A stretch of 64,000 nucleotides of DNA from Candidatus Woesebacteria bacterium GW2011_GWB1_39_10 (GTDB lineage Bacteria > Patescibacteriota > Microgenomatia > UBA8517), in the NCBI GenBank assembly GCA_000993205.1, contig LBVU01000004.1:124113-188112 (forward strand), read 5' to 3'. Every line of letters begins with the position of its first letter. Position 1 is the first letter of the stretch. Positions 13,545-29,000 of the stretch are shown here, piece by piece. The translations under genes and the position numbers were made by a program. Below the pieces are notes generated by a model. It worked only from the letters and a program-made list of their open reading frames with translations, was not told the origin of the DNA and searched no databases.

Positions 13545-14697
13545 ACTCTTTAAAAGCGGAGGCAGCTGTAGCAAGAAGCATTAATCCGTGTTTAAATCTC
13601 CTAATATTGGTTGCCCCATATACTCTTTCTTTATATCTAACCGGAATTTCCACAACTTTCAGATTATTTCTGACTGCGCCAAATATCAAATCAAAATCTC
13701 CAAAAGGATCAGACTTTGAGTGTTTAAAATTCATATAATCTTTTCGGAAAAAGGCTTTCGTTCCACAAAGAGTATCTTTAAATCTCTGTCCCAAGATCCA
13801 GGAAAATATTAAGCTGAACATTTTGTTACCGATTTTGTTTAATGTCTGCATGGCTTGGGCTTCCATGGGGTAAACCAGCCGGCTGCCGTTGGCAAATTCT
13901 CCGACTCCGTCGGATAGGGCGTTGTAAAATTTATTCAAGTCACTGCCGTCCACAGTCCTGTCCGCGTCATATATCATTAATATTTCATTTGATGCTTTTG
14001 AAAAACCCATTCTTACGGCATCTGCTTTTCCAATTCCCTTCTGTTTAAAAACTTTTACATTTCCATGCTTGGCCGCCACTTTTTTGATTTCGTCCCATGT
14101 TGCGTCATTCGAATGTCCTTCAATAAATATGTACTCTTGAGCTTTCCCAAAAATGGGAATTGAGGGAATAATTTTTGCGATATTCTTTTCTTCGTTCCTT
14201 GCCGGAATGATTATGGAAACTGAATATTTTTTAGCCCCAATTGGCTTGGGCCTGGCAATAACCAGAGTTATTAAACAAAAATTATTTAATATGGGCAAGT
14301 TTGCCAGATATTTATTGAAAAATTCCGTGATCAAGGGAATTATGACGGGTATTAGAACTCTTTTTTGTGTACTAATTACCTCAAATCCGGCGAGGTTTAA
14401 AAGTCCCGCCAAGTCGTATTCGTCTAACCAGTTTTGAGTACCAACAGTTCTTCTTAGCCCCAATTTTGACGCAAAAGATAAGAGCGGTTCCCAAAGATGA
14501 TTGTAATATGTTATTAGGATTCTAGTGTTTTCCGGTTTTGCCTTGTGAAGTTTTTCAAAATATTTTTGCAAATCGGGAGTACTCCCGATCACATTGTCCA
14601 AAACCACAACATTTTTTCCTTTCCGACCACCCAAGAATCTTTTGTGAATTTTTAGAAGTTCTTTTTTATAAAATTTTTGAAAGATATTGTCCGCCAT
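13531..14697 (-). CDS. GT2 glycosyltransferase (DPM1/GtrB-like catalytic domain) fused to an N-terminal methyltransferase-like domain with a degenerate SAM motif
   Basis: The C-terminal half has YSVSIIIPARNEEKNIAKII...MIYDADRT..GTKAF. The N-terminal roughly 150 aa align with the neighbouring methyltransferase: ILITYYNHLWEPLLSFASKLGL versus IFICTMANPKLEPILMIAEKMKL, and KRVLIPVIIPLITEFFNKYL versus FKLLIPIKIPLITYFANKYL. Motif I is replaced by VVVLDNVIGSTPD. Confidence 0.8.
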   Translation of the reverse strand: MADNIFQKFYKKELLKIHKRFLGGRKGKNVVVLDNVIGSTPDLQKYFEKLHKAKPENTRILITYYNHLWEPLLSFASKLGLRRTVGTQNWLDEYDLAGLLNLAGFEVISTQKRVLIPVIIPLITEFFNKYLANLPILNNFCLITLVIARPKPIGAKKYSVSIIIPARNEEKNIAKIIPSIPIFGKAQEYIFIEGHSNDATWDEIKKVAAKHGNVKVFKQKGIGKADAVRMGFSKASNEILMIYDADRTVDGSDLNKFYNALSDGVGEFANGSRLVYPMEAQAMQTLNKIGNKMFSLIFSWILGQRFKDTLCGTKAFFRKDYMNFKHSKSDPFGDFDLIFGAVRNNLKVVEIPVRYKERVYGATNIRRFKHGLMLLATAASAFKEFKTW

Positions 14698-15645
14698 CTA
14701 TTTTCTAAGTAAACCAATGCCTGTTTCTATATCAATTTTGGCTTTCCAGGAAATTATCTTTTGTGCAAGGTGGCTATCGGAATATTTCCTTCTTTCTTCA
14801 TATTCCCCCCGGGGGTTGGGACGGATGTATATCGTCTTCCCTCCAATTATTCCAACCAGATCGTTTACAGAAACTTCTTTACCAAAACCGATATTCAATA
14901 TTATGTTTTTACCTTTTACAAGCGGGTTTTTCATCGCCTTATAATTTGCGGCAACTACATCATCAATATATGTATAATCTCTTGTTTGTTTCCCGTCACC
15001 AAAAACCGTCAGATTTTCATCCCGATCGGAAGACTTAAGAAACTTACCGATTACCAATGAATATTCTCCCGTATCGGGCTGCCTTTTGCCATAAACATTA
15101 AAATATCTAAGGGAGGCAACCCTAAGCCCGAATTTATCTGCATAAAATGTGCAATACATTTCAGACATCAGTTTTTGGATTGCATAATGAGAAATGGGAT
15201 TCGGGATCATCTTTTCATTCATCTTGGCAATTTTTTGCAATCCATAAACGCTTGATGATGATGAAAATATAAATTTTTCCACTTGTGTAACTTTGGCCGC
15301 TTCAAGCATTGAAAGCGTCGCTCTAACGTTCGCCTCGTGAGTGCCGACGGGATCATCTACCGATCTTAATATTCTGGGAAGGGCGGCAACATGATGAATT
15401 GTCGCAGGTTTAATTTTTGCCACCAGTTCAGAAACTTTTTTTGCATTGGTCAAATCAACCAGAACAAAATTAGCTTTTGGATTCACGAATTCCCTTCTTC
15501 CTGAAGAAAGATTGTCAAACACATAAACCTTGTAACCCTTCTCTATGAGAAAGTCTACAAGGTTGCTGCCGATAAAACCTGCGCCGCCTGTCACAAGGAC
15601 ACAAGGATTAGAAACTTTCGAGTAATTTTTCATATTGAAGCGCAA
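14698..15645 (-). CDS. NAD-dependent epimerase/dehydratase (extended SDR, UDP-hexose 4-epimerase-like)
   Basis: VLVTGGAGFIGSNLVDFL Rossmann motif, SSSSVYG, and catalytic YxxxK (YAIQK). The likely start is the internal Met at MKNYS. Confidence 0.85.
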   Translation of the reverse strand: MRFNMKNYSKVSNPCVLVTGGAGFIGSNLVDFLIEKGYKVYVFDNLSSGRREFVNPKANFVLVDLTNAKKVSELVAKIKPATIHHVAALPRILRSVDDPVGTHEANVRATLSMLEAAKVTQVEKFIFSSSSSVYGLQKIAKMNEKMIPNPISHYAIQKLMSEMYCTFYADKFGLRVASLRYFNVYGKRQPDTGEYSLVIGKFLKSSDRDENLTVFGDGKQTRDYTYIDDVVAANYKAMKNPLVKGKNIILNIGFGKEVSVNDLVGIIGGKTIYIRPNPRGEYEERRKYSDSHLAQKIISWKAKIDIETGIGLLRK

Positions 15646-16534
15646 TTATATCCCATTCAAATTTTTTTGCTTGTCGAATTGCTTTTTCAGACCATTTACC
15701 CTCCAAAACTGTTTTAATAGCCTTCGCATAGCCGGCAGTATCGGTGGGGTCAACTAATATCCCAGCATCACCAACAATTTCTTTTCTTATCGAATCATCT
15801 GTAGCTACAACCGGAAGGCCGGACGCCATTGCCTCTACCAATACATTTCCAAACGACTCAGATAATGCCGAGGGAAGGGTAAATACATCTGCCGCCCGGT
15901 AAACTTCAGGCATTTTCTCAAACGGAACACTCATTAATTTGAATCCATCACCCAATAATCGTTTACCTTCCTCACGAAGTTTTTCCTTTAAATCCCCGCC
16001 CCCGCCGACCATTAACAAACTCGCTCCAATCTTGGCCACAGCTTTAATCGCCAGATCCATTCTTTTTTGTTCAGTAAATGCCCCGACTGCTAAAACAATT
16101 GGCTTTTTTAAACTAACATGCAAGGACTGTCCTTGCATGTTAAATTTCTTAAGATCGACACCGTTGGGAATATAAACAGATTTTACAAAGGGATTGACTC
16201 CCTTTGCCCAAATTAACGCTTTAGTAGAAAGAGCGACGAAGATGTCCGGAAAACAGTAGAGATTAACTCTGTCATCCAAACCTTTCCCGGATTGACCCGA
16301 AACAATCATTTTTGCACCTGTCAGCCATGTAATAATTCTTACGATAACTACCTGTAAACGACCGTTTGTAGGAATTATTACATCGTATTTTTTCTTTAAC
16401 ATGTCAAAATAATTTACCTTTGAGATAGTATCAACTTCGTGATTTTTGGACAAACGTTTGGAAAGTTCGTATACAAAAGTTTCAGCCCCCCTATAAACTT
16501 TGTTTTGATAAATATTTATAAATGCTATCTTCAT
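15608..16534 (-). CDS. Glycosyltransferase family 4
   Basis: SESFGNVLVEAMASGLPVVATDDSIRKEIVGDAGILVDP. Confidence 0.85.
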   Translation of the reverse strand: MKIAFINIYQNKVYRGAETFVYELSKRLSKNHEVDTISKVNYFDMLKKKYDVIIPTNGRLQVVIVRIITWLTGAKMIVSGQSGKGLDDRVNLYCFPDIFVALSTKALIWAKGVNPFVKSVYIPNGVDLKKFNMQGQSLHVSLKKPIVLAVGAFTEQKRMDLAIKAVAKIGASLLMVGGGGDLKEKLREEGKRLLGDGFKLMSVPFEKMPEVYRAADVFTLPSALSESFGNVLVEAMASGLPVVATDDSIRKEIVGDAGILVDPTDTAGYAKAIKTVLEGKWSEKAIRQAKKFEWDIIALQYEKLLESF

Positions 16535-17922
16535 ACGTCCCCCTTTTTATACCAAACTTCAACTCCTGATCTTGTATTTTCTTTATGTACGTAATTTTTC
16601 GATATCCACTCAAAGATTATTTTGGGTTGGTAAGTTCCTAAATCAAACCAATTTCCAGGTGTAGGTGGTGTCCAGAAAATAATTTTTGGCGGGTTGGTCT
16701 CCCACCCCGCAATTACTTTTTCTTGCAAACCCGGAACTTCAAAATGCCAAACATAATTTTCAATCCAAGGTTTTGGTGGGATTCTACCGGCGTAAACATA
16801 TATTACAGAGTTTGGTCCTAATAAATAAATTTCATCGTTTGAGGTAGTAACCGAAACTATGTATTGAGCTAGTTGAATTTCGCTGTTTCCATAAAACCTG
16901 ACCACATCATTGAATTCAGGTAATATAAGTCTATATCTGTACAGACCTACATAAAACAAGGCCAATAATGCGAATGTCAAAAACATTTTATTCTTTTGCG
17001 ATATCAAAAATACAACCGCTATAACAAAGAAAGCTAAGAATGGCTGTAGATGAAAAAAGGAAAATCTGGGAAATGCTGATACAAGTAATGTTGACATGAC
17101 ACCGTAAATAAGTATTGTTTTAATATCATAAGTTTTCTTCCGAATACTTGACAATACCGCCGGAAGCGGAGAAATCATCATTAAAATTATTACAAGCAAT
17201 TCTTTTTTACCCGGCAGAATTTTATATCCCGAAAATTCAGGTAGCCAGAAAAGCGGAAATTGAAAGGTCCAGAAAAGATAATCATTAAAATCACCTTTAA
17301 GTACTAAAAGGAAAATCAACCCCAATAATGGAATCGTTCCCCCTGCAGCAAAAATTACAAACTCTTTAAATGAAATCTTTTTAGCCAAAAGGTAAACAAA
17401 AATCGGCAATCCCGCCAGTACCGCCTGTTGCTTTATCAGGCAAGCCAGAGCAAGAAAAAATCCTGAAAGGAAGATATCCTGCCATTTATTTTTGAACGGC
17501 CGTTTGGAAACAAAATAGACTGATAAAAGAAGTGGAATAATCATGGCAATATCGAACCACATCATATTTCCCTCAAATAGAGGCTGGAATACAATATATA
17601 AGCCCAATGGAATTAACGATACCCATTTGTTTTTAAATAACTGTTTTGAAACAACGAAAATCAGCAAATCGATTATTAATATCGATATCCATGTAAATAT
17701 CTTAAGCGATTCCGGAGAAAAACCTGCAAATTTGTAATACATAAGTAAAATAAAAGTCAGTAGCGGTTGGTAAACGTGGTGAAAATCCTTGTATATCAAA
17801 AAACCTTTATCAACCATGTACGGGAACGAGAGCATTTCCGGCCAGGCGGTAAACTGCAGTCTTGAAAGAATAAACAGGTGTATCCCTAAAAGTCCTAATA
17901 ATGTTACGTATATTCTTTTCAT
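16531..17922 (-). CDS. Polytopic membrane protein, probable GT-C-type glycosyltransferase of unassigned family
   Basis: 463 aa, at least 10 hydrophobic helices, with a conserved-looking first loop (PYMVDKGFLIYKDFHHVYQP). No soluble catalytic domain is present. Embedded among glycosyltransferase genes. Confidence 0.4.
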   Translation of the reverse strand: MKRIYVTLLGLLGIHLFILSRLQFTAWPEMLSFPYMVDKGFLIYKDFHHVYQPLLTFILLMYYKFAGFSPESLKIFTWISILIIDLLIFVVSKQLFKNKWVSLIPLGLYIVFQPLFEGNMMWFDIAMIIPLLLSVYFVSKRPFKNKWQDIFLSGFFLALACLIKQQAVLAGLPIFVYLLAKKISFKEFVIFAAGGTIPLLGLIFLLVLKGDFNDYLFWTFQFPLFWLPEFSGYKILPGKKELLVIILMMISPLPAVLSSIRKKTYDIKTILIYGVMSTLLVSAFPRFSFFHLQPFLAFFVIAVVFLISQKNKMFLTFALLALFYVGLYRYRLILPEFNDVVRFYGNSEIQLAQYIVSVTTSNDEIYLLGPNSVIYVYAGRIPPKPWIENYVWHFEVPGLQEKVIAGWETNPPKIIFWTPPTPGNWFDLGTYQPKIIFEWISKNYVHKENTRSGVEVWYKKGDV

Positions 17923-18701
17923 TTATTTTTGGCAATTATACTCATGCTATCACCCATATTTAATAAGGTTGCTAGAAAAGAATAGGGCAAGAATAAAATG
18001 TTAACAAAAAAACGTTTTTTGAAAATAGAAAATGACTGCCACAATTCCGATAGTGGATTGGCGAACTCAAAAAGACCGGATCTGCTTTCAAAATGGATTA
18101 TTTTAAATTTCGCGTTTATAATTTTCTTGGAAAGCGAGTCTTTAGTAAACTGGTAGTTGTGTTCATTGGGCAATTTTAGCGTCCATTTATCCCCCATTAT
18201 TTTTGACCCTAAACCACCAGCGTTGGGAACATCAACGTATAATATTCCGCCTTTTTTCAAAATTCTATGTATTTTTTTTAAAATCAAATCGGCATCATCG
18301 ACATGTTCCAGAGTGTGGTTCATTATCACCAAATCAAAAGAATTATCGGGAAAAGATGATTTTTCAAAATATATTCTCGAAATCTTATGTCCCTTTCTTT
18401 CCGCCGTCATACCCGATTCGGATGGTTCAACACCAAAAGTTTGCCACCCACGTTCTTTGCAAATATCCAGAAAGACTCCATTTGAACAACCAATATCTAA
18501 AACTTTACCCCTCGAAGCCCTGAGCAAAGTCGAATGGGCGAAGTGGGGCCATATTATATTAAAACGCTTTAAAAATATATTTCTAAACAATCTCTCGTTT
18601 TCAATATAGTCCGTATCCCTGTGATAATTATTATAGTTAGTACCCATGTTTTTGAAATCTAAGTAGTGTCCGTCTATATATTTTACGTAACGGGGTTTCA
18701 A
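17919..18701 (-). CDS. Class I SAM-dependent methyltransferase
   Basis: VLDIGCSNGVF motif I, DLVIMNHTLEHV motif II, and GGILYVDVPN. Confidence 0.85.
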   Translation of the reverse strand: MKPRYVKYIDGHYLDFKNMGTNYNNYHRDTDYIENERLFRNIFLKRFNIIWPHFAHSTLLRASRGKVLDIGCSNGVFLDICKERGWQTFGVEPSESGMTAERKGHKISRIYFEKSSFPDNSFDLVIMNHTLEHVDDADLILKKIHRILKKGGILYVDVPNAGGLGSKIMGDKWTLKLPNEHNYQFTKDSLSKKIINAKFKIIHFESRSGLFEFANPLSELWQSFSIFKKRFFVNILFLPYSFLATLLNMGDSMSIIAKNK

Positions 18702-19467
18702 TAAAAGCTCTGAATTTGTACTTCAGGTCGGGAGTATTCCAAACCGATGTGACAATTTTTGGTCTATCCTTAAAAAAAACTTCTGGGAAATAAAAATCTT
18801 TAGGAAATTCGTCACCTATTTCATACTTCAGTTTCTTAGATCTTTTATATACATCTTGATTTTTATCGGACCGGCGCAAGTGAGTTGCATGCAAATAAGG
18901 TGCTTCTACGAAAATCATTTTAGATTGATTCCTTTTTTCGATTCTTTTTCCTTCTGCGTCAAACCAGCCAAAGATTCCATGTTTTCCTTTTGTGGTAAGT
19001 CCCGGAATATGCCTATTAAAGGCTCGCAGAGCATAGTGACCAACCTTGCTCGCAAGATTATATCTGCCAGCTTTTTTTTCCTGATAATGGAATATGTCAC
19101 CAACCAAATTATATGTGGGTACAACGATCGATTCTATGTTGTCGCCACTCGAATTAATCGTATCAACAACTTGCTTTATCGAATCATCCCACCATACTTC
19201 ATCCGCATCTACAATAATTACCCAGTCACAATCATCTTTCTGAAGCATTTCATCTCTAATTTTTGCTTCATCAAACTTATTTACAGACAATTTTTTAAAA
19301 TCAATGTTTTCATTCAATTTCATAATATTCTCTATAATTTCTATTGTGCCATCGGTACTTCCTGTATCCCATATATGGGCCCTATCAACGTATTTAATAA
19401 CAGACATTATTGAATACCAGGCAAATCTATTTTCATTTTTTAATAAAATGTGGGTACTAATTTTCAT
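18637..19467 (-). CDS. GT2-like glycosyltransferase (Glyco_tranf_2_4 type)
   Basis: HILLKNENRFAWYSIMSV...WDTGSTDGTIEII followed by VIIVDADEVW (DxD). Confidence 0.6.
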   Translation of the reverse strand: MKISTHILLKNENRFAWYSIMSVIKYVDRAHIWDTGSTDGTIEIIENIMKLNENIDFKKLSVNKFDEAKIRDEMLQKDDCDWVIIVDADEVWWDDSIKQVVDTINSSGDNIESIVVPTYNLVGDIFHYQEKKAGRYNLASKVGHYALRAFNRHIPGLTTKGKHGIFGWFDAEGKRIEKRNQSKMIFVEAPYLHATHLRRSDKNQDVYKRSKKLKYEIGDEFPKDFYFPEVFFKDRPKIVTSVWNTPDLKYKFRAFIETPLRKIYRRTLLRFQKHGY

Positions 19468-20803
19468 TTTTAGAATGTCTAAATTTAGCCAGAACCCAAA
19501 GGCCGGGAACTATAAAATTAAATATATTTCCTAAAAGTACGGCGTATGCGGCTCCCATAAAACCATAGTTTGATATAAGATACCATCCTGCACCAACGGT
19601 AATTAGAATGTTTCCGAAAGAAATAAAAACAAAAAGTTTCGGGTACTCAAAATAATAGAATATGGATGTATGGGCGGGAACTGATATCAAAAAGATCGCT
19701 TGAGCAAAAAGTAAAACAATAAAAGGACCGATTGCCTGTAAATAACTGCCCCCGTATAAGATCGGTATTATAAATTTTGACAAGGGTATCCCGACAGCGA
19801 TCCCAAAAATTGCCATAAAAATTGTAAAAATCTGAACTTTTTTGAGATACAACTTTGCCTTTAAATCTGAGTCAAATCCCGCAAGCTTGGGGGCTACAAC
19901 GGTACCAATAGCAAAGACGATCTGTGGAATAATACTGGAGAGCTGTAGTGCCGAAGAATAAATCCCGACATCATGCAGTGATAAAAGACTTGTTGAAAGT
20001 AATGTGTCAACCCTGCCTCCGAATGCTGCAACCAGTGTAAACAACGCAATCCAAATGTTATAACGGAAAAATTCACCGGCAACCTCTTTTTCATTTTCAA
20101 CATCAAAGAATTTAGGCAAAAACATGAGTCCCGCCAAAAAACCCAAAAAAGGAACCAAAATATACACGCTCAAAAAAGTGTTTGCACTCAAGAAACCAAA
20201 ATAGATAAGAGCCAAGGTTATCAAAAGGCGTATTAAATTTGTACCAATATTAACGCCATTCCAAATCCAGTATTTTTGAAGAGATTGGAGAGCGTATGTA
20301 GAAAAGGAAAAAAGTAAATAGCTTCCCACACCAATAAGAGCAAGGCGCATAGGAAAAATAAGTTCTGGTTTGGCAAAAAATCCATTTACAATCCCCGGCA
20401 CCAGGAACCAGCCTATGGATAAAACTGCAAGCCAGATCATAATCCGGACCTTCAGTGACAATTTTAGAAACTTGAATGCGCGAATCTTATCGGTATTTAT
20501 GTACTTACCTACAAATCGCACCATTCCGGTATCGCTGCCTACGTTGGCAATATCCCCAATGAGTGTTAGGATGGCAACAGAGACCGAAAAGGTTCCAAAA
20601 GCCGCCGGACCAAGTTGTCTTGCTAAAACAAAATAAAATACTAAGCCAAGAATTCCGTTTACAATAGTTCCGGATGATGTAATTAATGTCTGAGAAATAG
20701 TCTTTGTGGACAGAATTTCCTTTACTTTATCTAGATTTACGGTAAATCGCATATGCCAAGTATGACACAAGAAGCACTGAAATTGAACCCAAACTGATTC
20801 CAT
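19457..20803 (-). CDS. wzx: Wzx-type oligosaccharide flippase (MOP/PST superfamily polysaccharide biosynthesis protein)
   Basis: About 14 TM helices, glycine-rich hydrophobic profile, N-terminal ...TLITSSGTIVNGILGLVFYFVLARQLGPAAFG typical of the PST family. The probable true start is the internal MRFTVNLDKV (about 20752). Confidence 0.8.
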   Translation of the reverse strand: MESVWVQFQCFLCHTWHMRFTVNLDKVKEILSTKTISQTLITSSGTIVNGILGLVFYFVLARQLGPAAFGTFSVSVAILTLIGDIANVGSDTGMVRFVGKYINTDKIRAFKFLKLSLKVRIMIWLAVLSIGWFLVPGIVNGFFAKPELIFPMRLALIGVGSYLLFSFSTYALQSLQKYWIWNGVNIGTNLIRLLITLALIYFGFLSANTFLSVYILVPFLGFLAGLMFLPKFFDVENEKEVAGEFFRYNIWIALFTLVAAFGGRVDTLLSTSLLSLHDVGIYSSALQLSSIIPQIVFAIGTVVAPKLAGFDSDLKAKLYLKKVQIFTIFMAIFGIAVGIPLSKFIIPILYGGSYLQAIGPFIVLLFAQAIFLISVPAHTSIFYYFEYPKLFVFISFGNILITVGAGWYLISNYGFMGAAYAVLLGNIFNFIVPGLWVLAKFRHSKNEN

Positions 20804-23255
20804 TACTCAATTTTAAATTCTTCTCGCCCGTAAATTTAACCGTTACTTGATCAGCGTCTCCCAGATAAAATCCGTTTATCATAGAAAAAACCGGCAAATG
20901 CAGGTTGGATACATCGGATTCCCATCCGCGGTCAAAATTCTGAGTATAAATAAGCCAACTGTCATCGTCGCTTAACTGGTATTCATTTGTTAAACCACCA
21001 TTTTCTTTAATTGAAACGTCGTGCCATTCGGAAAGTGATGGGTTGGAATTATCTGAAATTCCAAAACGAGACATATACGCCTCAGCCTGTTTAATGGAAT
21101 CATTAAATTCACCTTCTGAAACAACAGCAATCGTATTTAAAACTTCCAAGTTCGTATCATTTTCAATCTCATATTCAAACTTGCCGGACTTTAAGGTTCT
21201 TTGTTCGAAATTCCATGTTAGTTTTTGCTGCTTTAAAGTCCCAGATCTTTTGGCTATTACATATTTTCCATCTTTCGGAATTTCAAAAATATAGTTAATT
21301 TTTTCTCCCTTTTTTGTAGAAAATGCCAATCCGCACCCAAAATCAAAATCCCTAAACTTATAACCTCGAATTAAAAGTTCATATTTATACTTAAGGTATT
21401 GATTAGAACTATAAATAGCCCATTCTGATTTTGAAGCATCGCCTACAAATTTGAAGTACCGTTGCAAAAAACTCATAGCAAGGTCTGTGGAATTACCTCC
21501 GTTCAATACTATTTTTAAAGAGTCCGGTCTAATTTTTTCAAATATTTTGGGATCAAATTTACCGCTCTCAGCGTAAACAGCTGTCGGAATTTTACTGGTA
21601 GGGATAATGTCGGACCCGACAATAAGTGCCAGTTTCTTTACCGAATAAACTTCCGGTCTTGGATCTTCAATCCTAAAAACCGGAATCTTTGTTCCCCAAT
21701 CTTCTTTTGTAAGTCCCGGAGTCTGTGAAACCAATTTGTTTATTTCCTCCCAATTTTTTACATCGTTCCTTGTCGGATAAAGATTGCGGGGGTCACCGGA
21801 CAATATAATATATTTAACACCAAATACTCTTAGCCAGTTTACAAAACCCTGATTATTCAAAAAATTGTAAGGGTCTTCACCCTCGTTAATGGAAGCAAAT
21901 GGTCTATACGACACAAGTTGGTTAGCACTAAGGGCTGGTTTAGCTGAAGTTTCGAAAGCAACCTGTGGTTTTTCGTTAAACCATAACGTCTTGAAATTAT
22001 CGTTCACCTGATTCAAATTGTTATATATTATCTGATAATCACTGCTTTCACGCCTTGCAGATAAATTAAAGTTCATTTTTCCGATAATCGCTGGGGAAAT
22101 TAGTAAAATAAGGTATAGGTAGACCGCAACAAATACGAACCGCTTTAAGTGAATATTTCTAAATAAATTACAGGCCAAGTCAACCGTATTCCCAATTAAA
22201 ATTCCCCCCAAAAGGACCATGGGAATAAAAAACTTGCTTGAATCCCTGAAAATAGAACCGAATGGAACCCTGTTTACAAAAAATTCATACCAACTTCCCA
22301 ACGGGGGCGCGCTTCCTTTGGAAACAAAGGCAAAAAATAAAAATATCAGGGAGAAAATATAATATTTTTTATCCACCTTCCTGAACATTAATCCGCCGAA
22401 CGCCAAAGCAGGAATAAGGGAAAAGTAAAAAAACGGCTGAACGACTTTACCAAAAATGTTAGACGGCCAGTGAGGCGCAAATAAAAACAAAGAATTAAGG
22501 AGCGACGAAAGTTGGAGTTCTGTAACTGAAGTACTAAGCCCCCCCACTCCACCTTTCATTATAGGCAAGAGCCAGGAAGCATTCACGGGAATTAAAAGAA
22601 TTCCGGCCAACATTAACCAGAACAAATTTTTAACCCGGACTTCTAAAATTTGCCACAAAAATATTACCAGAAAAGACAAGGTTCCGATGCGGGGATCAAT
22701 ATAACAAAGAGTAACAGTTGCAAAAAGAGCAAGGGCAAATTTATGGATTGAAAAATTATCAAGAAACCTTTTCCAAAAAAGAACCGTAAATGGAAAAACA
22801 CCATAACTAAGAGCTATTCCCACCTGTCCGCCATCTATCAATAAAATAAAATAAGTATTCAAAAGATAAAAGAGTGAAGAAAAGAATTGCACAGTTTTTG
22901 ACAATTTTAGATATCTGGTCAAAAAATAAGGACCAAACCCGGCAAGTATTACAGACGGAAAATAAAAAAGAATTCTGACAATTGCGTCGTTTCCCAATCC
23001 AAGATATTTATTAAGGGCTCCATAAATCACCATCATTGGAGAAAGCCAAAGAGCGAGATTTCTTCCGCCAAAATCCGTACCATTTTGGGACCAAATCGAA
23101 AGCCCCGAAACAAGTTCCTTCAATCCTTCGGGGTAAAAATACGGAGCATCTCCCCAAGCCAAATGCAGATTTCTAAAAAAAGATATAAAAACAAAAAAGG
23201 AAGGGGTCAAAATCAAAAATACATAAAACAAGTTATTTATATGCTTTTTATTCAT
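20727..23255 (-). CDS. Large polytopic membrane protein (842 aa): N-terminal multi-TM domain, large extracytoplasmic domain and C-terminal TM anchor. Candidate GT-C glycosyltransferase (YfhO/AftD-like architecture)
   Basis: Hydrophobic N-terminal roughly 400 aa with acidic loop HLAWGDAPYFYPEG. Roughly 400 aa hydrophilic domain. The C-terminus ends ...INGFYLGD...ISLGSISVLLVSYLAYAIYRK (a TM helix). Confidence 0.45.
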   Translation of the reverse strand: MNKKHINNLFYVFLILTPSFFVFISFFRNLHLAWGDAPYFYPEGLKELVSGLSIWSQNGTDFGGRNLALWLSPMMVIYGALNKYLGLGNDAIVRILFYFPSVILAGFGPYFLTRYLKLSKTVQFFSSLFYLLNTYFILLIDGGQVGIALSYGVFPFTVLFWKRFLDNFSIHKFALALFATVTLCYIDPRIGTLSFLVIFLWQILEVRVKNLFWLMLAGILLIPVNASWLLPIMKGGVGGLSTSVTELQLSSLLNSLFLFAPHWPSNIFGKVVQPFFYFSLIPALAFGGLMFRKVDKKYYIFSLIFLFFAFVSKGSAPPLGSWYEFFVNRVPFGSIFRDSSKFFIPMVLLGGILIGNTVDLACNLFRNIHLKRFVFVAVYLYLILLISPAIIGKMNFNLSARRESSDYQIIYNNLNQVNDNFKTLWFNEKPQVAFETSAKPALSANQLVSYRPFASINEGEDPYNFLNNQGFVNWLRVFGVKYIILSGDPRNLYPTRNDVKNWEEINKLVSQTPGLTKEDWGTKIPVFRIEDPRPEVYSVKKLALIVGSDIIPTSKIPTAVYAESGKFDPKIFEKIRPDSLKIVLNGGNSTDLAMSFLQRYFKFVGDASKSEWAIYSSNQYLKYKYELLIRGYKFRDFDFGCGLAFSTKKGEKINYIFEIPKDGKYVIAKRSGTLKQQKLTWNFEQRTLKSGKFEYEIENDTNLEVLNTIAVVSEGEFNDSIKQAEAYMSRFGISDNSNPSLSEWHDVSIKENGGLTNEYQLSDDDSWLIYTQNFDRGWESDVSNLHLPVFSMINGFYLGDADQVTVKFTGEKNLKLSNGISLGSISVLLVSYLAYAIYRKSR

Positions 23256-23412
23256 TTTTTGAATAATTAATAATTACTCCGATTACCAAAACAAAAAACA
23301 TATAATTCGATATTTTTATTGCCACTCCTGAATGGTTTGTAAAAAGTAAAAAACCTGTTACCAAATAATCTAGTAACACAAAAGCCAAAATATATTTTCC
23401 CATTATTTTCAT
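23248..23412 (-). CDS. Small hypothetical membrane protein (54 aa, 2 TM), not in the ORF track
   Basis: The reverse complement reads MKIMGKYILAFVLLDYLVTGFLLFTNHSGVAIKISNYMFFVLVIGVIINYSKNE*. A TATAAT box lies 10 nt upstream. Its stop overlaps the ATG of the 842-aa gene (ATGAATAA). It fills an otherwise 170-bp gap. Confidence 0.35.
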   Translation of the reverse strand: MKIMGKYILAFVLLDYLVTGFLLFTNHSGVAIKISNYMFFVLVIGVIINYSKNE

Positions 23413-23426: not shown

Positions 23427-24230
23427 CTAAACCCCCTCCGTCCAATATCTGCCAGTATAAAAACGAAACACCATAAATGTAAAACCCTTTAACGCCTTGT
23501 AAAGATACCTTAACTTAAGCTTATTGCCTTTTTTTGCGTTTCCATACTTTACAGGAACCATTTTGTATTTCGCTCCAAGTTTTAACGAAAGTACTCTCAA
23601 TTCCGTTTGTACCAAATGCGGAACAATGGTTACAGAAACCCATTTTTCTATGTCTGACTTAGAAAATAGTTGTTTTAAAAATTTTGAAGAGAAGGCTTCA
23701 TAACCACTGGTTAAGTCGGACAGAGGTGGATATATCCCAAAAAAAACATTAGAAAGAGAAGTTCCGATTTTACTAATGATTACTCTTTGTATAGGTAAAT
23801 TTTTAAAACCACCCCCTCTTGAAAATCTCGTGGAAAATACACAATCACATTTTTCTTCGATCAGCCCTTTTAAAAAAATTGGGATCTTATTGGGATCGTG
23901 CATGGCCACGTCCATCTCTATAACATAATCTACTCCATCGGCAACCGCCCTTTCAAAACCTGACAGGTAGGATCTGGCAAACGTCAATTTTTTATTTTTT
24001 ATTAGTTTATGATTGGATATTACCTTTTTATACTTTTTAGAAAGCTTGATGACAAAGTTGTAACTTTCGATGGGTGTGTAATCATCGGTAGTAAAAACAA
24101 TCTCAAATTTACCGAAATATTTGGTTTTTGAAAATACTTTATATATATCTTCAACAGTCTTTTCTAACGATTTAAAGGTTTCTCTACCAACACACAAACA
24201 CACAGCAATTTTGGGTTTATTTTTATACAT
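23427..24230 (-). CDS. GT2 glycosyltransferase, DPM1-like
   Basis: KIAVCLCVGRETFKSL..., EMDVAMHDP (a D-x-D..H motif like the Dpm1 DAD motif), and YGNAKKGNKLKL. Confidence 0.65.
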   Translation of the reverse strand: MYKNKPKIAVCLCVGRETFKSLEKTVEDIYKVFSKTKYFGKFEIVFTTDDYTPIESYNFVIKLSKKYKKVISNHKLIKNKKLTFARSYLSGFERAVADGVDYVIEMDVAMHDPNKIPIFLKGLIEEKCDCVFSTRFSRGGGFKNLPIQRVIISKIGTSLSNVFFGIYPPLSDLTSGYEAFSSKFLKQLFSKSDIEKWVSVTIVPHLVQTELRVLSLKLGAKYKMVPVKYGNAKKGNKLKLRYLYKALKGFTFMVFRFYTGRYWTEGV

Positions 24231-25446
24231 GCAATACTTTCTTTGAAAAAGAGATCGCTTGTTCTACTGCAACATCCGAATTCACATGTTCCCATCTCCC
24301 CCATCTTCCAATTCCAAAAATTTTATTTTTCTCTCCCCATTTTAAAATATCTGCTATTATTTTATTTTTCCCGATAACATTTACTGGGTATGAATATTCA
24401 TTTGTCTGTGAAAAAATTTTACTCTTACCCTTATTCATTCTGGCAGCGTTCGTTTCTGTCCAATGCCCGCGGGATCCTGTGACGAAATTGTGTCTATGTA
24501 AAATTCTGTGAAATGAAACTTTTTCATCGGGAATATATGTCCAATGTGCAGGAGAATCGAAATTGGTATTAAAATAATCAACACGTATTGGTACATGTTT
24601 TAATTTAAGCATCTTTTTATTTATATTGACAGGGAAATTGGAAACCCTAGATAAGGTTGGCCAAGGAATTGTATTTACTACACACTCAGCTTTATATTTC
24701 TTATTTATGATTTTATTTTTAAAATCAAATGACTTTACCGAACAATTATATACGATATGACCTTCCATACTTTTGGCGATTTTTAACCAAACTTCGCCAT
24801 ACCCTCCAATTTTAGGGTAATAAAATTTTTTATGTGCCGGGATTCTACCTTTTGCCATTTTACTTAAACAACTTTCGATTATTTCTTCAAGCGACACGTC
24901 TGGAATTTTATTAAACCACGTAGTACTTAAATTTTTAAAATGGTCTCCCCACAATTTTTTGTTGTAGGGGATCATGTAATTTTTGGCAATTTCATCTCCA
25001 TATTTAAGATAGACCCACTTATGAAACTTTTTTACATTTGTTAATTTATTACGCGATACACTGGAAACTTTAAACAAAGACTTAAGGTAAATTACCTGAA
25101 GATCAATAGGTAAGTGCCATATGTGAGATTCAATCGGATAATCTATAAGTTGTCCGTGAATCGCTATTTTTGAAATTCTTTTATAAATGTTCCAATTTTT
25201 CTTCGGTAAAAAACGAAATATAAATTTTAATACTTCTTTATTCCTAACATCCAAAAAGTGCCCACCACCAATATCAAGTGGCGTATCATCTACAATTTTG
25301 CTTCTACACAGGCCCCCAGCCTCTTTCTCTTTTTCTAAAATAATAAATGACTTTTCTCCTCTATCTAACAACGATCTTCCAAGTGCAAGCCCCGAAGGCC
25401 CCGCACCAAGAATTAAATATTTGTATTCTTTGACTTTATTAACCAT
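24223..25446 (-). CDS. glf: UDP-galactopyranose mutase
   Basis: Alignment blocks against E. coli Glf: YLILGAGPSGL (FAD GxGxxG), YNKKLWG versus YTEKQWG, FYYPKIGGYGEVWLKIAKSM versus YQGIPVGGYTKLIEKM, EYSYPVN versus EPYYPVN, and GIGRWGRWEHVNSDVAVEQAI versus FGGRLAEYKYYDMHQVISAAL. Confidence 0.8.
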   Translation of the reverse strand: MVNKVKEYKYLILGAGPSGLALGRSLLDRGEKSFIILEKEKEAGGLCRSKIVDDTPLDIGGGHFLDVRNKEVLKFIFRFLPKKNWNIYKRISKIAIHGQLIDYPIESHIWHLPIDLQVIYLKSLFKVSSVSRNKLTNVKKFHKWVYLKYGDEIAKNYMIPYNKKLWGDHFKNLSTTWFNKIPDVSLEEIIESCLSKMAKGRIPAHKKFYYPKIGGYGEVWLKIAKSMEGHIVYNCSVKSFDFKNKIINKKYKAECVVNTIPWPTLSRVSNFPVNINKKMLKLKHVPIRVDYFNTNFDSPAHWTYIPDEKVSFHRILHRHNFVTGSRGHWTETNAARMNKGKSKIFSQTNEYSYPVNVIGKNKIIADILKWGEKNKIFGIGRWGRWEHVNSDVAVEQAISFSKKVLHV

Positions 25447-25650: not shown

Positions 25651-26019
25651 TTAGGAGCTTATAAACTTAATAATTACTATTACCAAAAAACCATAAATAT
25701 AATTACCGATCAATTCCGATAACGGCAACAGGCCAAGTGAATCAAAAAAATAGGAGATTATAAATAAACCGAAACAAAAATACAAAATCGTTTTCCAACC
25801 AATTTTAAATATCTGGAATAAACTAGTCAAAATTAAAAAAACAACCAATTCCTTCGTAAAAATTAAATTAAAATAAGGTAGCTGCGAAACTAACAGCCAA
25901 AAGGACATCGTAAATATAAAGAGAATTAAGCGAACCCTATTAATGTTTATCCACACAAAAGCTTTACTTAAATAACCATCTAATAAACTATCCAAATAAC
26001 CAGGTTTAATTTTTCTCAT
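25651..26019 (-). CDS. Small hypothetical integral membrane protein (122 aa, 3-4 TM)
   Basis: Hydrophobic segments LILFIFTMSFWLLV, VVFLILTSLFQIF and YFCFGLFIISYFF. 14-bp overlap with the upstream giant gene. Confidence 0.5.
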   Translation of the reverse strand: MRKIKPGYLDSLLDGYLSKAFVWININRVRLILFIFTMSFWLLVSQLPYFNLIFTKELVVFLILTSLFQIFKIGWKTILYFCFGLFIISYFFDSLGLLPLSELIGNYIYGFLVIVIIKFISS

Positions 26020-29000
26020 TTTTTATTGTTCGTACCCAAGCTATTAAATATAATATCGCCAATATTATTATCGAAGAGATCGAAATTTTTAGACCCTTGC
26101 TAAATAATTCTTGTGGCTGGTACACCAACAACAAATCATATTGTCTACCTCCTCCAGACAATAACCACCCATTTTCATAACCATTCACTGAAAAGTGATC
26201 TGTAATCGGAGTACCGTTCGCATCTGTAAGTTTCCACAGACCATTAAATGCTTGATTAAAAATCAAAACCATATCGCCATTAAATTTGTTTGTCGTAATA
26301 TTGTATCTTGTTGGATCTATTTTTTTGTAAGTGAGAGTTGTCGCTTCGACATTAATACTATTATTTTTAACTGCATAAATTTCCGGATTAAAAATCTCAA
26401 GAACATTTAATTTAACATTTTCGGGAATGGATCTGTCGTATCTACAAAGATAAATCAATGGAACGTTCGCTCCCACAGAAGGATCAAAAAAATACTTAAA
26501 CGAGTTGCCATCAGGGTTTAACGAAACATCCATTTCAATATCACCCCTTAAGAATTCATCTGTTGATTGATTTCTCTGGCTATTCTCTTTGATATATAGT
26601 CTCATGTTCGGTAAATAGATATCAGATGATAAGGTCAAAACGTAATTTCTGTATTTATTAAAATTATTGATTTTGCCTATTACGCATCCGCGAGTTCCTA
26701 AAGGAAAGTCCACCTCTTCTTTATTGATAACTTTAAATAGGTCTGGTAAATATTGAAAAATTAAATCTAACTCTCCGGTTTTAGGAAATTCCGCTGGATC
26801 AGTAAACATCCACTTTTTATCCTCAACGTTCTTGAGATTTAAGTTTTGACCGGTGCTCAACGCCATGTCTGACGGAATGACAACTCCACCTTTGTTGTCG
26901 CTGGGCAACGTAGCCTTATCGATAAGAAGACTGTACTGACCGCTGGACGGAAGACTAATATTGTAAATTTTATTCAAATTCCATTTCCCTCCGTCCCCTA
27001 TCAATCCATCATATTGTTTTTTTAACAATGTACTTTGCCAAAGGATTTTAAACATATTATTTTTAATATCCGATTTCTCATAACCAAAATTTGAATTACT
27101 TATATAATCTCTGAAATATCTCTGAATAGGATTCACTGTTTCGTAAATTCTGGAAGCAAAATAGAAATTTGATTTCAGAGAGTTTGACTTGAAAAGTATA
27201 TTATTTATATTTTCCAAATAGTTATTCAAATCATTTAATCCCAGGTTTATATATTTTTTATCGATCTGTAAATCAATCATCGACCTTATCTCGCTCAGTT
27301 TAGTCATCGCTAAACCTATATGCGCGGCAAGTCTTGAATTTTCATCATCGACACTCGACAATATTTTTTCATTTCTTTCTTTCTTGATCGCATAAAAAGG
27401 TGAATTGGGCAACACTCTTACAGGAGGAAGGTCTGCGTGTTTCCCTAAATTTTCGACAAGACATGATTCACAGTTTAGAGGATAATATTCCTGAAGAACC
27501 AACTTATCTAAACCGTTATTTACACTCTCTGAACTCAACCAATCTTTCGTGTTGTCTTTTGAGATTATAGGTTCTTTGGATATATATATATGATCCTTGG
27601 GAACTGAAAAAAAATTATTGACCAGTCTAAACGTATTATTTTCTTCTGTGTTTTTGATACGTAAAAGTGACCATGGTCCGACTGTTTTGACAAGTTTTAA
27701 CTCGTCGTTGTCAATAAAACTTTTTACTGCTGCAAAATATTCTTCGCTTACCTCACTATCCTCAGCCTGAAAATCACTTCTTATAAATAAATAGTTTATT
27801 CCGAGTTTTTTTGAGACATCAAAAAAAACAGGGCTTTTTTGCAATAAAAGCGCAAAGAGTTTGTTTATCTTGTCTGATTCGACGGAATTATTTATTACAT
27901 CGTTGACCATGAACGAACCGTTAGCAAACAATACAGACGGCAACGGGGAAAGGCTCCAATACCCCCAGGTATAATTATCATTACCCGATCCGCCATCAAA
28001 GGCCGGTAACATTAATGCCCTTCCGGTAAAATTTGTATCTTTTAGCCAATTGTTAAACTCAGTCGCATATTCAGGAACCTTTACAAGTGTGCTTTTATCC
28101 GGCTGCCATTTAAACAAAAAGTCCCGGTTAAACATTATAAAGTTATAAAATAACCACCCGACGGCAACCGTCAATACAAAAAGCGGGCCGGAAATGAGCA
28201 TCGTATTCTTTAATCTACGACCAATCAGATTGTTAATCTTTGAAAAAATAAATTCCCCCAGTATCGACAATGAATATGCAAGAAGAATTGAATAGGAAAT
28301 TATGAACGAGGTGGCAAATTTAAAATAAGGAGACCGGAATATCGAAAACCCCGGAATTTTTTCATATAAAGCGGTGTAGACAAATCCCAACGGGGAGTTT
28401 GTCCCGGCTGTAAAAAACATTGAAATAAGTAGTAAAAATAAAAAGAAGAAAATCAGATATTTTTTATCTTTTTCTTTAACAAATAACATACCGGAAAATG
28501 ATAATATCGGAAGCAAAAAACTGACTAATACCAATATGCGATTAGTCAAATATAATCCTGCATAAGAATATTCGGGATTTGGTAAACCGCCAGTCAAATA
28601 CCATTCCGGAACGCCCTGAAATCTAAATAGATTAATAAAAAAGGTCCCTCTGCTTATATAAATAAGCCATTCCTTTCCTGCTGCAATTGTTCCCTGTCCT
28701 ACAACAACTGCGTAATCTGAGCTAATTAATATAGAAATAAAAGGCAAGATCGAATACATATTAAGCAAAACAAAAAAAACAAAACTTAAAAGACAGAAGA
28801 TTAAAGTTCTTCTAAAATAAGAAAGGTCTTTTTCCTTTTTCGCAATTATTATGGCAAATAGCAAATAAACCATTCCTGCAACAAATAAACTGCCATAAAG
28901 AGGTAAACCTAACCAGCTACCGCCATTAAAAATGGAAAAAATAACGGAAAAAATAATCGAACTTCTTAAAACCGGTTTTTTCCTGTCAAACAATATCCCC

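What the first reader, a model, noticed from the sequence alone, without database searches (positions are those of the whole stretch)
20727..23255. Second large (842 aa) membrane protein with the same three-part architecture and a related C-terminal signature
Like the 1163-aa protein it has a hydrophobic N-terminal half (acidic loop HLAWGDAPYFYPEG), a large soluble domain and a C-terminal TM anchor preceded by an aromatic/Gly-rich segment (...MINGFYLGDAD..., versus ...VNGYENGWLLSGG... in the 1163-aa protein). The two flank the glf gene on either side. They may be a paired polymerase/transferase set for a furanose-containing glycan.
Basis: inference. Interest (0 to 1): 0.6.

Follow-up and report, generated by a model that had tools for sequence, protein, structure and literature searches.

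The report
AftD-like membrane glycosyltransferase in Woesebacteria
The 842-residue protein is very probably a membrane-embedded sugar-transferring enzyme (GT-C fold, closest to mycobacterial AftD) that decorates a cell-surface glycan of an uncultivated Woesebacteria-type bacterium; it is a distant paralog of the neighbouring 1163-residue protein and belongs to a large, uncharacterised family.

Summary
ORF 20727-23255 (-) encodes 842 aa with 11 N-terminal TM helices, a ~420-aa external domain and one C-terminal TM helix.

The 842 family has more than 1000 clusters at 50% identity. All informatively named genomes are Microgenomates/Patescibacteria. It sits in a conserved cassette: 54-aa membrane protein, GT-C, Wzx-type flippase, GT2, methyltransferase, PMT_2, GT4.

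The "glf" gene is a UDP-galactopyranose-mutase-superfamily flavoprotein, not a canonical Glf. With a Dol-P-Man-synthase-like GT2 it forms an accessory pair, absent from 35/35 species-representative loci but present in the same slot in one distant relative.

Most likely the protein transfers sugar outside the membrane from a polyprenyl-phosphate donor. A furanose donor is possible here but unproven. It is a new variant of a known kind, of moderate interest.

The parts
20727..23255 (-). 842-aa GT-C-fold (AftD-like) membrane glycosyltransferase; the finding itself
22083..23255 (-). Residues 1-391: 11-TM GT-C core. Conserved residues at the predicted outer face are D36 (GDAP, >=90%) and the invariant D141 (DGGQ), D187/R189 and R337-D338-x2-K341. 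The first external loop carries the motif W-x6-FG-x2-N.
   Evidence: Topology, conservation, alignment to the 1163 family and to AftD.
21351..22082 (-). Residues ~392-635: external mixed alpha/beta domain, equivalent to the soluble part of the GT-C super-domain
20829..21350 (-). Residues ~636-809: beta-sandwich region that resembles CBM6/CBM35. Its last part (745-809) is the shared C-terminal signature, including MINGFY.
20730..20828 (-). Residues 810-842: C-terminal TM anchor with a basic cytoplasmic tail (RKSR)
23248..23412 (-). sm54: conserved 54-aa two-TM protein. Its stop codon overlaps the start of the 842-aa gene (ATGAATAA).
   Evidence: Sequence. Homologs sit directly upstream of 842-family genes: 21 distinct homolog sequences were recovered from related loci, with core motif TNHxGxAIK..NY. 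No Pfam hit.
19457..20803 (-). Wzx-type (MOP, Polysacc_synt) flippase, overlapping the end of the 842-aa gene
   Evidence: Pfam PF01943/PF13440. It is the next gene in 29/35 loci and lies within ~6 kb in 34/35.
18637..19467 (-). GT2 (276 aa, no TM helix), conserved cassette member
   Evidence: Pfam GT2. Present in 31/31 loci. Nearest PDB entry is GmaR.
17919..18701 (-). SAM methyltransferase, conserved cassette member
   Evidence: present in 31/31 loci.
16531..17922 (-). PMT_2-type GT-C (463 aa), conserved cassette member
   Evidence: present in 30/31 loci.
15608..16534 (-). GT4 glycosyltransferase, conserved cassette member
   Evidence: present in 28/31 loci.
13531..14697 (-). GT2 with an AglJ / dolichyl-phosphate-hexose-transferase-like domain; a candidate polyprenyl-P-sugar synthase of the cassette
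   Evidence: NCBIfam TIGR04182 at 118 bits and NF041391 at 69 bits, both below cut-off. Syntenic genes occur in L001, L005 and L006.
23427..24230 (-). GT2_267: small soluble GT2, accessory; a candidate polyprenyl-P-sugar synthase. It ends 14 nt before sm54.
   Evidence: Its only PDB hit is P. furiosus Dol-P-Man synthase 5mlz, E 4e-7. Weak AglJ hit. A 56%-identical homolog is fused to a multi-TM domain in L048.
24223..25446 (-). glf-like flavoprotein of the UDP-galactopyranose mutase superfamily; accessory
   Evidence: It occupies the same slot in L046 at 70.5% identity.
25651..26019 (-). tm122: 122-aa protein with four predicted TM helices. Its start overlaps the end of the 1163-aa gene.
   Evidence: It follows 1163-family genes in related loci: 10 distinct homolog sequences were recovered. 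No Pfam hit.
26006..29497 (-). 1163-aa AftD-like GT-C, distant paralog of the 842-aa protein
   Evidence: PF11847 at 27.1 bits. PDB profile and sequence hits to AftD. AlphaFold model matches AftD with Foldseek E 3.6e-15.
29494..30162 (-). SAM methyltransferase immediately upstream of the 1163-aa gene; conserved with it
   Evidence: synteny.

Best explanation
Shown: the 842-aa protein has a GT-C fold with a reduced AftD-type architecture. An 11-helix membrane core carries the predicted active site at the outer membrane face (Asp36 in the first external loop, plus invariant D141, D187/R189 and R337/D338/K341). An external alpha/beta domain and one CBM6/35-like beta-sandwich follow, and a single C-terminal helix anchors the protein. 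It is a distant paralog of the 1163-aa AftD-like protein. It belongs to a cassette conserved across Microgenomates: 54-aa membrane protein, GT-C, Wzx-type flippase, soluble GT2, methyltransferase, PMT_2 GT-C, GT4. Inferred: a cytoplasmic GT2 loads a sugar, or a short glycan, onto polyprenyl phosphate. The adjacent Wzx-type flippase moves it across the membrane. The 842-aa enzyme then transfers it to a cell-surface glycan or glycoconjugate that its beta-sandwich domain helps to hold. This is the logic of the streptococcal GacI/J/K/L multi-component system and of mycobacterial arabinan assembly. More speculative: in this genome, and in at least one other lineage, a mutase-like flavoprotein and a Dol-P-Man-synthase-like GT2 are inserted directly upstream of sm54-842. 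The donor here may therefore be a polyprenyl-phosphate hexofuranose.
Against: No biochemistry exists; activity, donor and acceptor are all inferred. The protein reaches no curated family threshold (PF10131 18.1 bits against 26.4). AftD's D474/E475 have no acidic counterpart in the aligned 1163 family, and the 842 family lacks that motif altogether. The cassette GT2 next to the flippase resembles GmaR, not a Dol-P-sugar synthase. sm54 is not detectably related to GacJ. Wzx-type flippases more commonly move diphosphate-linked repeat units, which would fit an en-bloc transfer role instead. The glf-like pair is missing from most loci (0/35).
Confidence: 0.65

Rival explanations
1. The protein is an en-bloc transferase or polymerase. 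It would take a whole oligosaccharide, flipped by the adjacent Wzx-type flippase on polyprenyl phosphate or diphosphate, and either polymerise it or ligate it to another polymer or protein. Models are the lactococcal GT-C enzymes WpsH and WpsJ, or an oligosaccharyltransferase. With the 1163-aa paralog it would form the 'polymerase/transferase pair' the first reader proposed.
For: The Wzx-type flippase is the next gene in 29/35 loci. After AftD, the next structural neighbours are oligosaccharyltransferases AglB, STT3 and PglB. GT-C enzymes are proposed as polymerase (WpsH) and ligase (WpsJ) in the lactococcal pellicle pathway (PMC10821137).
Confidence: 0.2
2. The protein is a true functional ortholog of AftD: an arabinofuranosyltransferase that uses decaprenyl-phosphate-arabinofuranose.
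For: AftD is the best structural match for both proteins. The 1163-aa paralog passes PF11847.
Against: Aligned identity to AftD is only ~12%. PF11847 does not hit the 842 family (0/31 members). The protein has no TM13-16 module and one CBM-like domain instead of three. No UbiA-type phosphoribosyltransferase or DprE1/E2-like gene was found among the 56 window ORFs scanned.
Confidence: 0.03
3. The protein is a YfhO/PTPS_related-type enzyme that decorates a teichoic-acid-like polymer, so it is an ordinary member of an existing family rather than AftD-like.
For: PF10131 hits 14/31 family members at E<=0.01, best 4e-8. One database entry is named PTPS-related. PF10131 lies in the GT-C/PMT clan (PMC7801869).
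Against: The window protein scores below the PF10131 cut-off, and only over residues 96-309. PF09586 (YfhO) gives no hit at E<=1 for this protein or at E<=0.01 for any of the 31 members. PF10131 itself has no known function.
Confidence: 0.07
4. The protein is non-catalytic: a membrane-anchored glycan-binding or scaffold protein that has kept the GT-C fold.
For: No activity data exist. The external domain lacks AftD's D474/E475 equivalents.
Against: Acidic and basic residues at the predicted outer-face active site are invariant across a family that diverges to 28-40% identity.
Confidence: 0.05

Closest known systems
AftD (mycobacterial alpha-1,3-arabinofuranosyltransferase; PF11847 GT-C_AftD / DUF3367; PDB 6w98, 6wbx)
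   Different: Aligned identity is ~12% and PF11847 does not hit. The protein has one CBM-like domain, not three. It lacks the TM13-16 module and therefore the acyl-carrier-protein-binding region. D474/E475 have no equivalent. No DPA-pathway genes lie nearby. The host is Patescibacteria, not Actinobacteria.
The neighbouring 1163-aa protein (window 26006-29497) and its family
   Same: It is homologous across the TM core, the first soluble domain and the C-terminal beta-sandwich plus TM anchor (hhalign E 3e-27 and 1e-20). The two gene families are usually close together on the same strand.
   Different: The 1163-aa protein has ~400 extra residues: a helical bundle with a sub-threshold DUF5667 match (15 bits, cut-off 27), extra beta-sandwiches and four invariant Cys. 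It has a WGYWSLS motif and reaches the PF11847 cut-off. It is followed by tm122 rather than preceded by sm54.
Gac-type multi-component transmembrane glycosylation system (GacI GT-A, GacJ small TM protein, GacK Wzx-type flippase, GacL GT-C) of Streptococcus pyogenes
   Same: The parts list matches and is encoded contiguously: a soluble GT2, a small membrane protein, a Wzx-type flippase and a GT-C enzyme (PMC8035078).
   Different: GacL is a PMT_2-type GT-C, not AftD-like. sm54 (54 aa, 2 TM) is not detectably related to GacJ (3 TM). The function of the cassette GT2 is untested.
Gtr-type and pentofuranose three-component systems (GtrA/GtrB/Gtr*; GT136 ORF12 of Citrobacter youngae)
   Same: A lipid-phosphate sugar donor is made inside, flipped, and used outside by a GT-C that carries a CBM-like beta domain (PMC11127046).
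   Different: Those systems use GtrA-type or small flippases, and PRPP-derived pentofuranoses. Here the candidate upstream enzyme is a UGM-like mutase, which implies a hexofuranose route not described in that paper.
PTPS_related (PF10131) and YfhO (PF09586) GT-C families
   Same: All have an N-terminal GT-C membrane domain. About half of the 842-family members give sub- to near-threshold PF10131 hits.
   Different: The window protein is below the PF10131 cut-off. YfhO gives no hit at all.

Membership tests
GT-C fold glycosyltransferase superfamily | Polytopic N-terminal membrane domain whose first external loop carries a conserved acidic residue | tested here: met
   The protein has 11 TM helices. 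Loop 28-90 carries G35-D36 (>=90% conserved). Other invariant charged residues lie at the outer face.
GT-C fold glycosyltransferase superfamily | Structural similarity to solved GT-C enzymes | tested here: met
GT-C fold glycosyltransferase superfamily | Uses a polyprenyl-phosphate-linked sugar donor at the outer face of the membrane | not testable with these tools
   Context only: polyprenyl-P-sugar-synthase-like GT2s and a flippase lie in the island.
AftD / PF11847 (GT-C_AftD, DUF3367) | Scores at or above the Pfam gathering threshold for PF11847 | tested here: not met
   No PF11847 hit at E<=1 for the 842-aa protein. No hit at E<=0.01 for any of 31 family members. The 1163-aa paralog passes at 27.1 bits against 26.
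AftD / PF11847 (GT-C_AftD, DUF3367) | 11-TM GT-C super-domain, then external domains, then a helix that returns to the membrane | tested here: met
   compared with the description in bioRxiv 10.1101/2019.12.22.885152.
AftD / PF11847 (GT-C_AftD, DUF3367) | Three CBMs plus a structural beta-sandwich, and the C-terminal TM13-16 module that binds acyl carrier protein | tested here: not met
   There is one CBM6/35-like beta-sandwich region and a single C-terminal TM helix.
AftD / PF11847 (GT-C_AftD, DUF3367) | Equivalents of the essential residues K39, D41, E251, K361 and D474 | tested here: inconclusive
   The Asp of the first external loop and the FR-x3/4-K-F motif are conserved. The D474/E475 position aligns to non-acidic residues in the 1163 family and to a gap in the 842 family. 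An exact residue-by-residue mapping onto AftD was not possible without its full sequence.
AftD / PF11847 (GT-C_AftD, DUF3367) | Decaprenyl-phosphate-arabinose donor pathway (UbiA-type DPPR synthase, DprE1/E2) present | tested here: not met
   None was found among the 56 window ORFs scanned against Pfam. Six ORFs of at least 150 aa between 53.5 and 63.7 kb and the rest of the genome were not examined.
YfhO (PF09586) | Match to the PF09586 profile | tested here: not met
   No hit at E<=1. No hit at E<=0.01 for any of 31 members.
PTPS_related (PF10131) | Score at or above the gathering threshold (26.4 bits) | tested here: not met
   18.1 bits, over residues 96-309 only. 14/31 relatives hit at E<=0.01, best 4e-8.
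Oligosaccharyltransferase (STT3/AglB/PglB) | WWDYG-type motif in the external domain | tested here: not met
   0 of 62 sequences from both families match W[WYF]D[YWFN]G. There is no STT3 Pfam hit.
Wzy / O-antigen ligase (Wzy_C, PF04932) | Match to the Wzy_C profile | tested here: not met
   No hit. A separate Wzy_C protein is encoded at 4113-5486.
UDP-galactopyranose mutase Glf (for the neighbouring 'glf' ORF 24223-25446) | TIGR00031 equivalog cut-off or the Pfam GLF domain (PF03275) | tested here: not met
   47.8 bits against a cut-off of 303.75. No PF03275 hit. It is related to eukaryote-type UGMs at E 3e-23 over residues 10-227, so superfamily membership is supported.

The most novel reading that the evidence does not exclude
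In this genome and in L046, four translationally coupled or adjacent genes would form an extracytoplasmic hexofuranosylation pathway: a UGM-like flavoprotein, a Dol-P-Man-synthase-like GT2, the 54-aa membrane protein and the 842-aa GT-C. The route would be UDP-hexopyranose to UDP-hexofuranose to polyprenyl-phosphate-hexofuranose, then flipping by the adjacent Wzx-type flippase, then transfer by the AftD-like GT-C. The lipid-linked furanose donors in the papers I read are pentofuranoses made from PRPP (PMC11127046). To my knowledge, galactofuranose is otherwise added in the cytoplasm from UDP-Galf. A polyprenyl-P-hexofuranose donor used by a reduced AftD-like enzyme in CPR bacteria would therefore be a new route.
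Probability: 0.2. Interest if true: 0.7.

Novelty: new variant of a known kind. Interest (0 to 1): 0.4.

Why it matters
Patescibacteria (CPR) are mostly uncultivated and depend on contact with other cells, and the chemistry of their cell surface is almost unknown. This protein belongs to a large family (more than 1000 clusters at 50% identity) that has no curated family model and no functional annotation. It can now be read as a reduced AftD-type glycosyltransferase inside a strongly conserved seven-gene cassette, which gives a concrete starting point for working out how these bacteria build surface glycans outside the membrane. It also shows that the AftD architecture, known from the mycobacterial cell wall, is not confined to Actinobacteria. 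The variable mutase + GT2 insert yields a testable hypothesis about a lipid-linked hexofuranose donor.

Tried and rejected
- Direct sequence searches of the 842-aa protein found nothing. phmmer against PDB gave no hit. The family profile against PDB gave only chance-level S-layer matches.
- Pfam and NCBIfam gave only sub-threshold hits (PF10131; MmpA at 24 bits against 210), which I do not use as assignments.
- I first concluded that the glf-like + GT2 pair was unique to this window, because none of 35 species-representative loci has it. I withdrew that after finding the same pair in the same slot in L046/L047.
- I tested whether the cassette GT2 (18637-19467) is a Dol-P-sugar synthase, which would give a neat three-component reading. 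It is not supported: the nearest PDB entry is GmaR and there is no NCBIfam hit.
- I tested whether sm54 or tm122 are GacJ/DUF2304-like. Neither has any Pfam hit at E<=5.
- I tested whether the 823-aa ORF (37004-39475), which has a similar layout, is a third paralog. hhalign gave probability 0.6%, and no other window ORF is hit by either family profile.
- The large membrane proteins that follow the glf-like gene in Wolfebacteria-type loci are not related to either family by hmmsearch.
- A metagenome scan with GT2_267 returned one weak locus.
- The promoter and terminator scan did not differ from shuffled sequence.
- No Rfam family and no tRNA gene was found in the window.
- The literature library holds nothing on this family or on GT-C enzymes in Patescibacteria.


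Full report
**1. The observation**

The ORF at 20727-23255 on the minus strand runs from ATG to a stop codon and encodes 842 residues. The larger protein is encoded at 26006-29497 (-) and has 1163 residues.

A hydropathy scan read with the positive-inside rule gives both proteins the same plan:
- 11 TM helices (842: residues ~9-391; 1163: ~9-450);
- a large external domain;
- one C-terminal TM helix followed by a short basic tail.

Every short loop rich in Lys/Arg falls on the cytoplasmic side. The AlphaFold secondary structures agree.

**2. Are the two proteins related?**

Yes, but only profile methods show it clearly.
- BLASTP finds one 61-residue match (39% identity, E 7e-4).
- I aligned 31 members of each family (A1 and A2). 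hhalign then gives probability 99.7% and E 3.4e-27 over 531 columns, covering residues 1-549 of the 842-aa protein and 1-636 of the 1163-aa protein.
- The C-terminal modules, compared separately, give E 4e-15 and 1e-20.
- Among 77 window ORFs of at least 100 aa, each profile hits only its own protein and the other large protein.

The 1163-aa protein carries about 400 extra residues between the two shared parts: a helical bundle, further beta-sandwiches and four invariant cysteines.

**3. What the protein is**

Curated family libraries say little about the 842-aa protein.
- Pfam gives PF10131 (PTPS_related) at 18.1 bits against a cut-off of 26.4.
- There is no YfhO (PF09586) and no PF11847 hit, either for this protein at E<=1 or for any of 31 relatives at E<=0.01.
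- 14 of the 31 relatives touch PF10131 at E<=0.01. That family has unknown function and lies in the GT-C/PMT clan (PMC7801869).

The 1163-aa protein just passes PF11847, the AftD GT-C domain formerly called DUF3367 (27.1 bits against 26). Its family profile matches three separate parts of the AftD chain in PDB:
- the first external loop;
- the soluble GT-C domain;
- the last beta-sandwich plus return helix.

Structure prediction settles the fold.
- The 1163-aa model (pLDDT 85.7) also matches AftD first (E 3.6e-15).

The published AftD description (bioRxiv 10.1101/2019.12.22.885152) lists an 11-TM GT-C super-domain, two fewer helices than other GT-Cs. It also lists juxtamembrane helices after TM1, a soluble alpha/beta domain, CBMs, and then a single helix returning to the membrane. 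The 842-aa protein has all of these. It has only one CBM-like domain and lacks AftD's extra TM13-16 module.

**4. The predicted active site**

Conserved residues in the 842 family, placed on the topology, all lie at the outer face:
- G35-D36 in the first external loop (>=90% conserved);
- invariant D141 in DGGQ, between TM3 and TM4;
- invariant D187 and R189;
- W263-P264 in the long loop after TM7;
- invariant R337-D338-x2-K341 before TM10.

The hhalign alignment pairs these with invariant residues of the 1163 family: G39-H40-D41, E148/K151, W299 and R388/K393. The first-loop motif W-x5/6-FG-x2-N is also visible in AftD itself.

AftD residues K39, D41, E251, K361 and D474 are essential, and W272 is fully conserved. 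The D474/E475 position has no acidic counterpart in the aligned 1163 family and falls in a gap in the 842 family.

**5. Organism, family size and gene context**

The closest relatives come from *Candidatus* Woesebacteria. One, on the 1.08-Mb chromosome CP066686.1, is 81% identical. A scan of one genome per species found 38 loci. Nearly all informatively named ones are Woesebacteria, Blackburnbacteria, Daviesbacteria, Microgenomates or "Patescibacteria group"; one contig is labelled Woesearchaeota. Many MAGs titled "uncultured Gammaproteobacteria" carry the same cassette, so those titles look like placeholder labels.

A profile search of 1.84 billion cluster representatives found 4004 relatives at E<=1e-3 and 1120 at E<=1e-30. 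This is a large family that has not been annotated.

Gene order is strongly conserved. In the 35 species-representative loci with a hit (raw maps):

| Neighbour of the 842-family gene | Loci |
|---|---|
| Wzx-type flippase as the very next gene | 29/35 |
| Wzx-type flippase within ~6 kb | 34/35 |
| GT2 (276-aa type) | 31/31 |
| Methyltransferase | 31/31 |
| PMT_2 GT-C | 30/31 |
| GT4 | 28/31 |
| 1163-like gene within 10 kb upstream (strong orthologs: 7/24) | 18/24 |

A 54-aa two-TM ORF (sm54, 23248-23412) has its stop codon overlapping the start of the 842-aa gene. It recurs directly upstream of family members and has a conserved TNHxGxAIK..NY core. A 122-aa four-TM ORF (25651-26019) follows the 1163-family gene in the same way.

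The whole 64-kb window is a glycan island:
- five PMT_2-type GT-Cs and a Wzy_C protein;
- many GT2 and GT4 enzymes, epimerases and methyltransferases;
- at least three ArnC/PgfS/AglJ-like GT2s of the polyprenyl-phosphate-sugar-synthase type.

**6. The 'glf' gene**

ORF 24223-25446 is a flavoprotein of the UDP-galactopyranose mutase superfamily, but it is not a canonical Glf.
- It has no Pfam GLF domain.
- TIGR00031 scores 47.8 bits against a cut-off of 303.75.
- Its best solved relatives are eukaryote-type mutases from *Aspergillus* and *Trypanosoma* (E 3e-23 and 2e-17). Bacterial mutases score only E 4e-7.
- Sources annotate its homologs as FAD or NAD(P)-binding oxidoreductases.

The gene overlaps a 267-aa GT2 (23427-24230). 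That GT2's only PDB match is the *Pyrococcus* dolichol-phosphate-mannose synthase (E 4e-7), and it ends 14 nt before sm54.

None of the 35 species-representative loci has either gene within 10 kb. This includes relatives at 87% (L009) and 81% (L001) identity, where tm122 runs straight into sm54. The pair is therefore an accessory insert, and the 842 family does not depend on it.

It is not unique to this window, however. Contig Ga0172379_10000703 (L046) has the same pair in the same slot: 1153-aa gene, 119-aa gene, one reverse-strand gene, glf-like, GT2, sm54, 820-aa gene. There the flanking GT-Cs are only 48% and 42% identical to the window's proteins, while the inserted genes are 70.5% and 59% identical.

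Two other contexts point the same way:
- In L048/L049 the glf-like gene is followed by a 56%-identical homolog of GT2_267 fused to a multi-TM domain. That domain is cut off by the contig end and has no Pfam hit.
- In Wolfebacteria-type loci the order is small EamA protein, glf-like gene, GT2, then a 664-702-aa polytopic membrane protein.

The recurring pattern "mutase-like, GT2, large membrane protein" suggests that the 842-aa enzyme fills the GT-C position in this window. This is an inference from gene order, not a demonstration.

**7. Mechanism**

Shown:
- GT-C fold with AftD as the nearest structure;
- paralogy with the 1163-aa protein;
- outside-facing conserved charged residues;
- a CBM-like domain;
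- the conserved cassette with a Wzx-type flippase.

Inferred: the enzyme transfers sugar at the outer face from a polyprenyl-phosphate-linked donor to a surface glycan held by its beta-sandwich domain.

The closest described system logic is the streptococcal GacI/GacJ/GacK/GacL arrangement: a soluble GT-A, a small membrane protein, a Wzx-type flippase and a GT-C (PMC8035078). The parts list matches that of the cassette. However, sm54 is not detectably GacJ-like, and the cassette GT2 resembles GmaR rather than a Dol-P-sugar synthase.

The main rival is en-bloc transfer or polymerisation of a flipped oligosaccharide, as proposed for the lactococcal GT-C enzymes WpsH and WpsJ (PMC10821137). The flippase adjacency fits that rival. 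Against it:
- neither family has an oligosaccharyltransferase WWDYG motif;
- a separate Wzy_C protein is present in the window;
- AftD is clearly closer than the oligosaccharyltransferases.

True AftD orthology, meaning arabinofuranose transferred from DPA, is unlikely. Identity is ~12%, PF11847 does not hit, modules are missing, and no DPA-pathway genes were found among the window ORFs scanned.

**8. Novelty and verdict**

The protein is a divergent, reduced AftD-type member of the GT-C superfamily. Its family has no curated model and no literature in the library searched. I rate it a new variant of a known kind, of moderate interest.

The most novel reading that the evidence still allows is an extracytoplasmic hexofuranosylation route through a polyprenyl-phosphate-hexofuranose donor. 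The lipid-linked furanose donors described in PMC11127046 are pentofuranoses derived from PRPP. I give this reading a probability of about 0.2.

Noticed in passing
window 23248-23412 (-): Unannotated 54-aa ORF (sm54) with two predicted TM helices. Its stop overlaps the ATG of the 842-aa gene. It is conserved directly upstream of 842-family genes in many Microgenomates loci, with core motif LLxTNHxGxAIK..NY, and has no Pfam hit. It could be a subunit or activator.
   Followed up: partly
window 25651-26019 (-): 122-aa protein with four predicted TM helices (tm122). Its start overlaps the end of the 1163-aa gene. It is conserved after 1163-family genes (PYFNL motif) and has no Pfam or NCBIfam hit.
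   Followed up: partly
window 23413-25650; L046 10001-12010; L048 6925-9679: The glf-like + GT2_267 pair behaves as a mobile accessory module. It is absent from the closest relatives yet sits in the same slot in a more distant lineage, where it is more conserved (70.5% and 59% identity) than the flanking GT-C genes (42-48%). In L048 the GT2 is fused to a multi-TM domain.
   Followed up: partly
window 24223-25446 (-): The mutase-like flavoprotein is much closer to eukaryote-type UDP-galactopyranose mutases (Aspergillus, Trypanosoma; E 1e-17 to 1e-23) than to bacterial Glf (E 4e-7). Its ~400-aa family is widespread in bacteria and is annotated only as an oxidoreductase or 'protoporphyrinogen oxidase'.
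   Followed up: partly
window 33835-35808, 37004-39475, 39472-41235 (all -): Three further large ORFs (657, 823 and 587 aa) have no Pfam hit. Each is polytopic (8-10 predicted TM helices) and has an acidic motif soon after TM1 (VDDW, KDDF, QDEW). The 823-aa protein also has a C-terminal TM anchor. They may be additional GT-C-like enzymes. hhalign of the 823-aa protein against the 842 family shows no relationship.
   Followed up: partly
whole window 1-64000: Every ORF scanned (56, spanning 0.6-62.7 kb) fits a surface-glycan biosynthesis island. It holds five PMT_2 GT-Cs (2651-4147, 10698-11999, 16531-17922, 55020-57131, 60760-62739) and a Wzy_C protein (4113-5486). It also holds three ArnC/PgfS/AglJ-like GT2s (13531-14697, 47290-48240, 54079-55023) and an asparagine-synthase-like gene (43979-45826). 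There are no tRNA genes and no Rfam matches.
   Followed up: partly
L009, L012-L014, L019, L020, L023-L026, L033-L038, L040, L043 (record titles): Many MAG records titled 'uncultured Gammaproteobacteria bacterium', and one titled 'Woesearchaeota archaeon', carry the same cassette as named Microgenomates genomes. These titles look like placeholder or wrong taxonomic labels.
   Followed up: no
window 25447-25650: This ~200-bp non-coding gap between tm122 and the glf-like gene looks locally more G+C-rich than its surroundings on reading the sequence; GC was not computed for it. It marks the upstream edge of the accessory insert. A sigma-70-like match lies at 25523-25494 (-), but promoter-like matches in the region are no more frequent than in shuffled sequence.
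   Followed up: no
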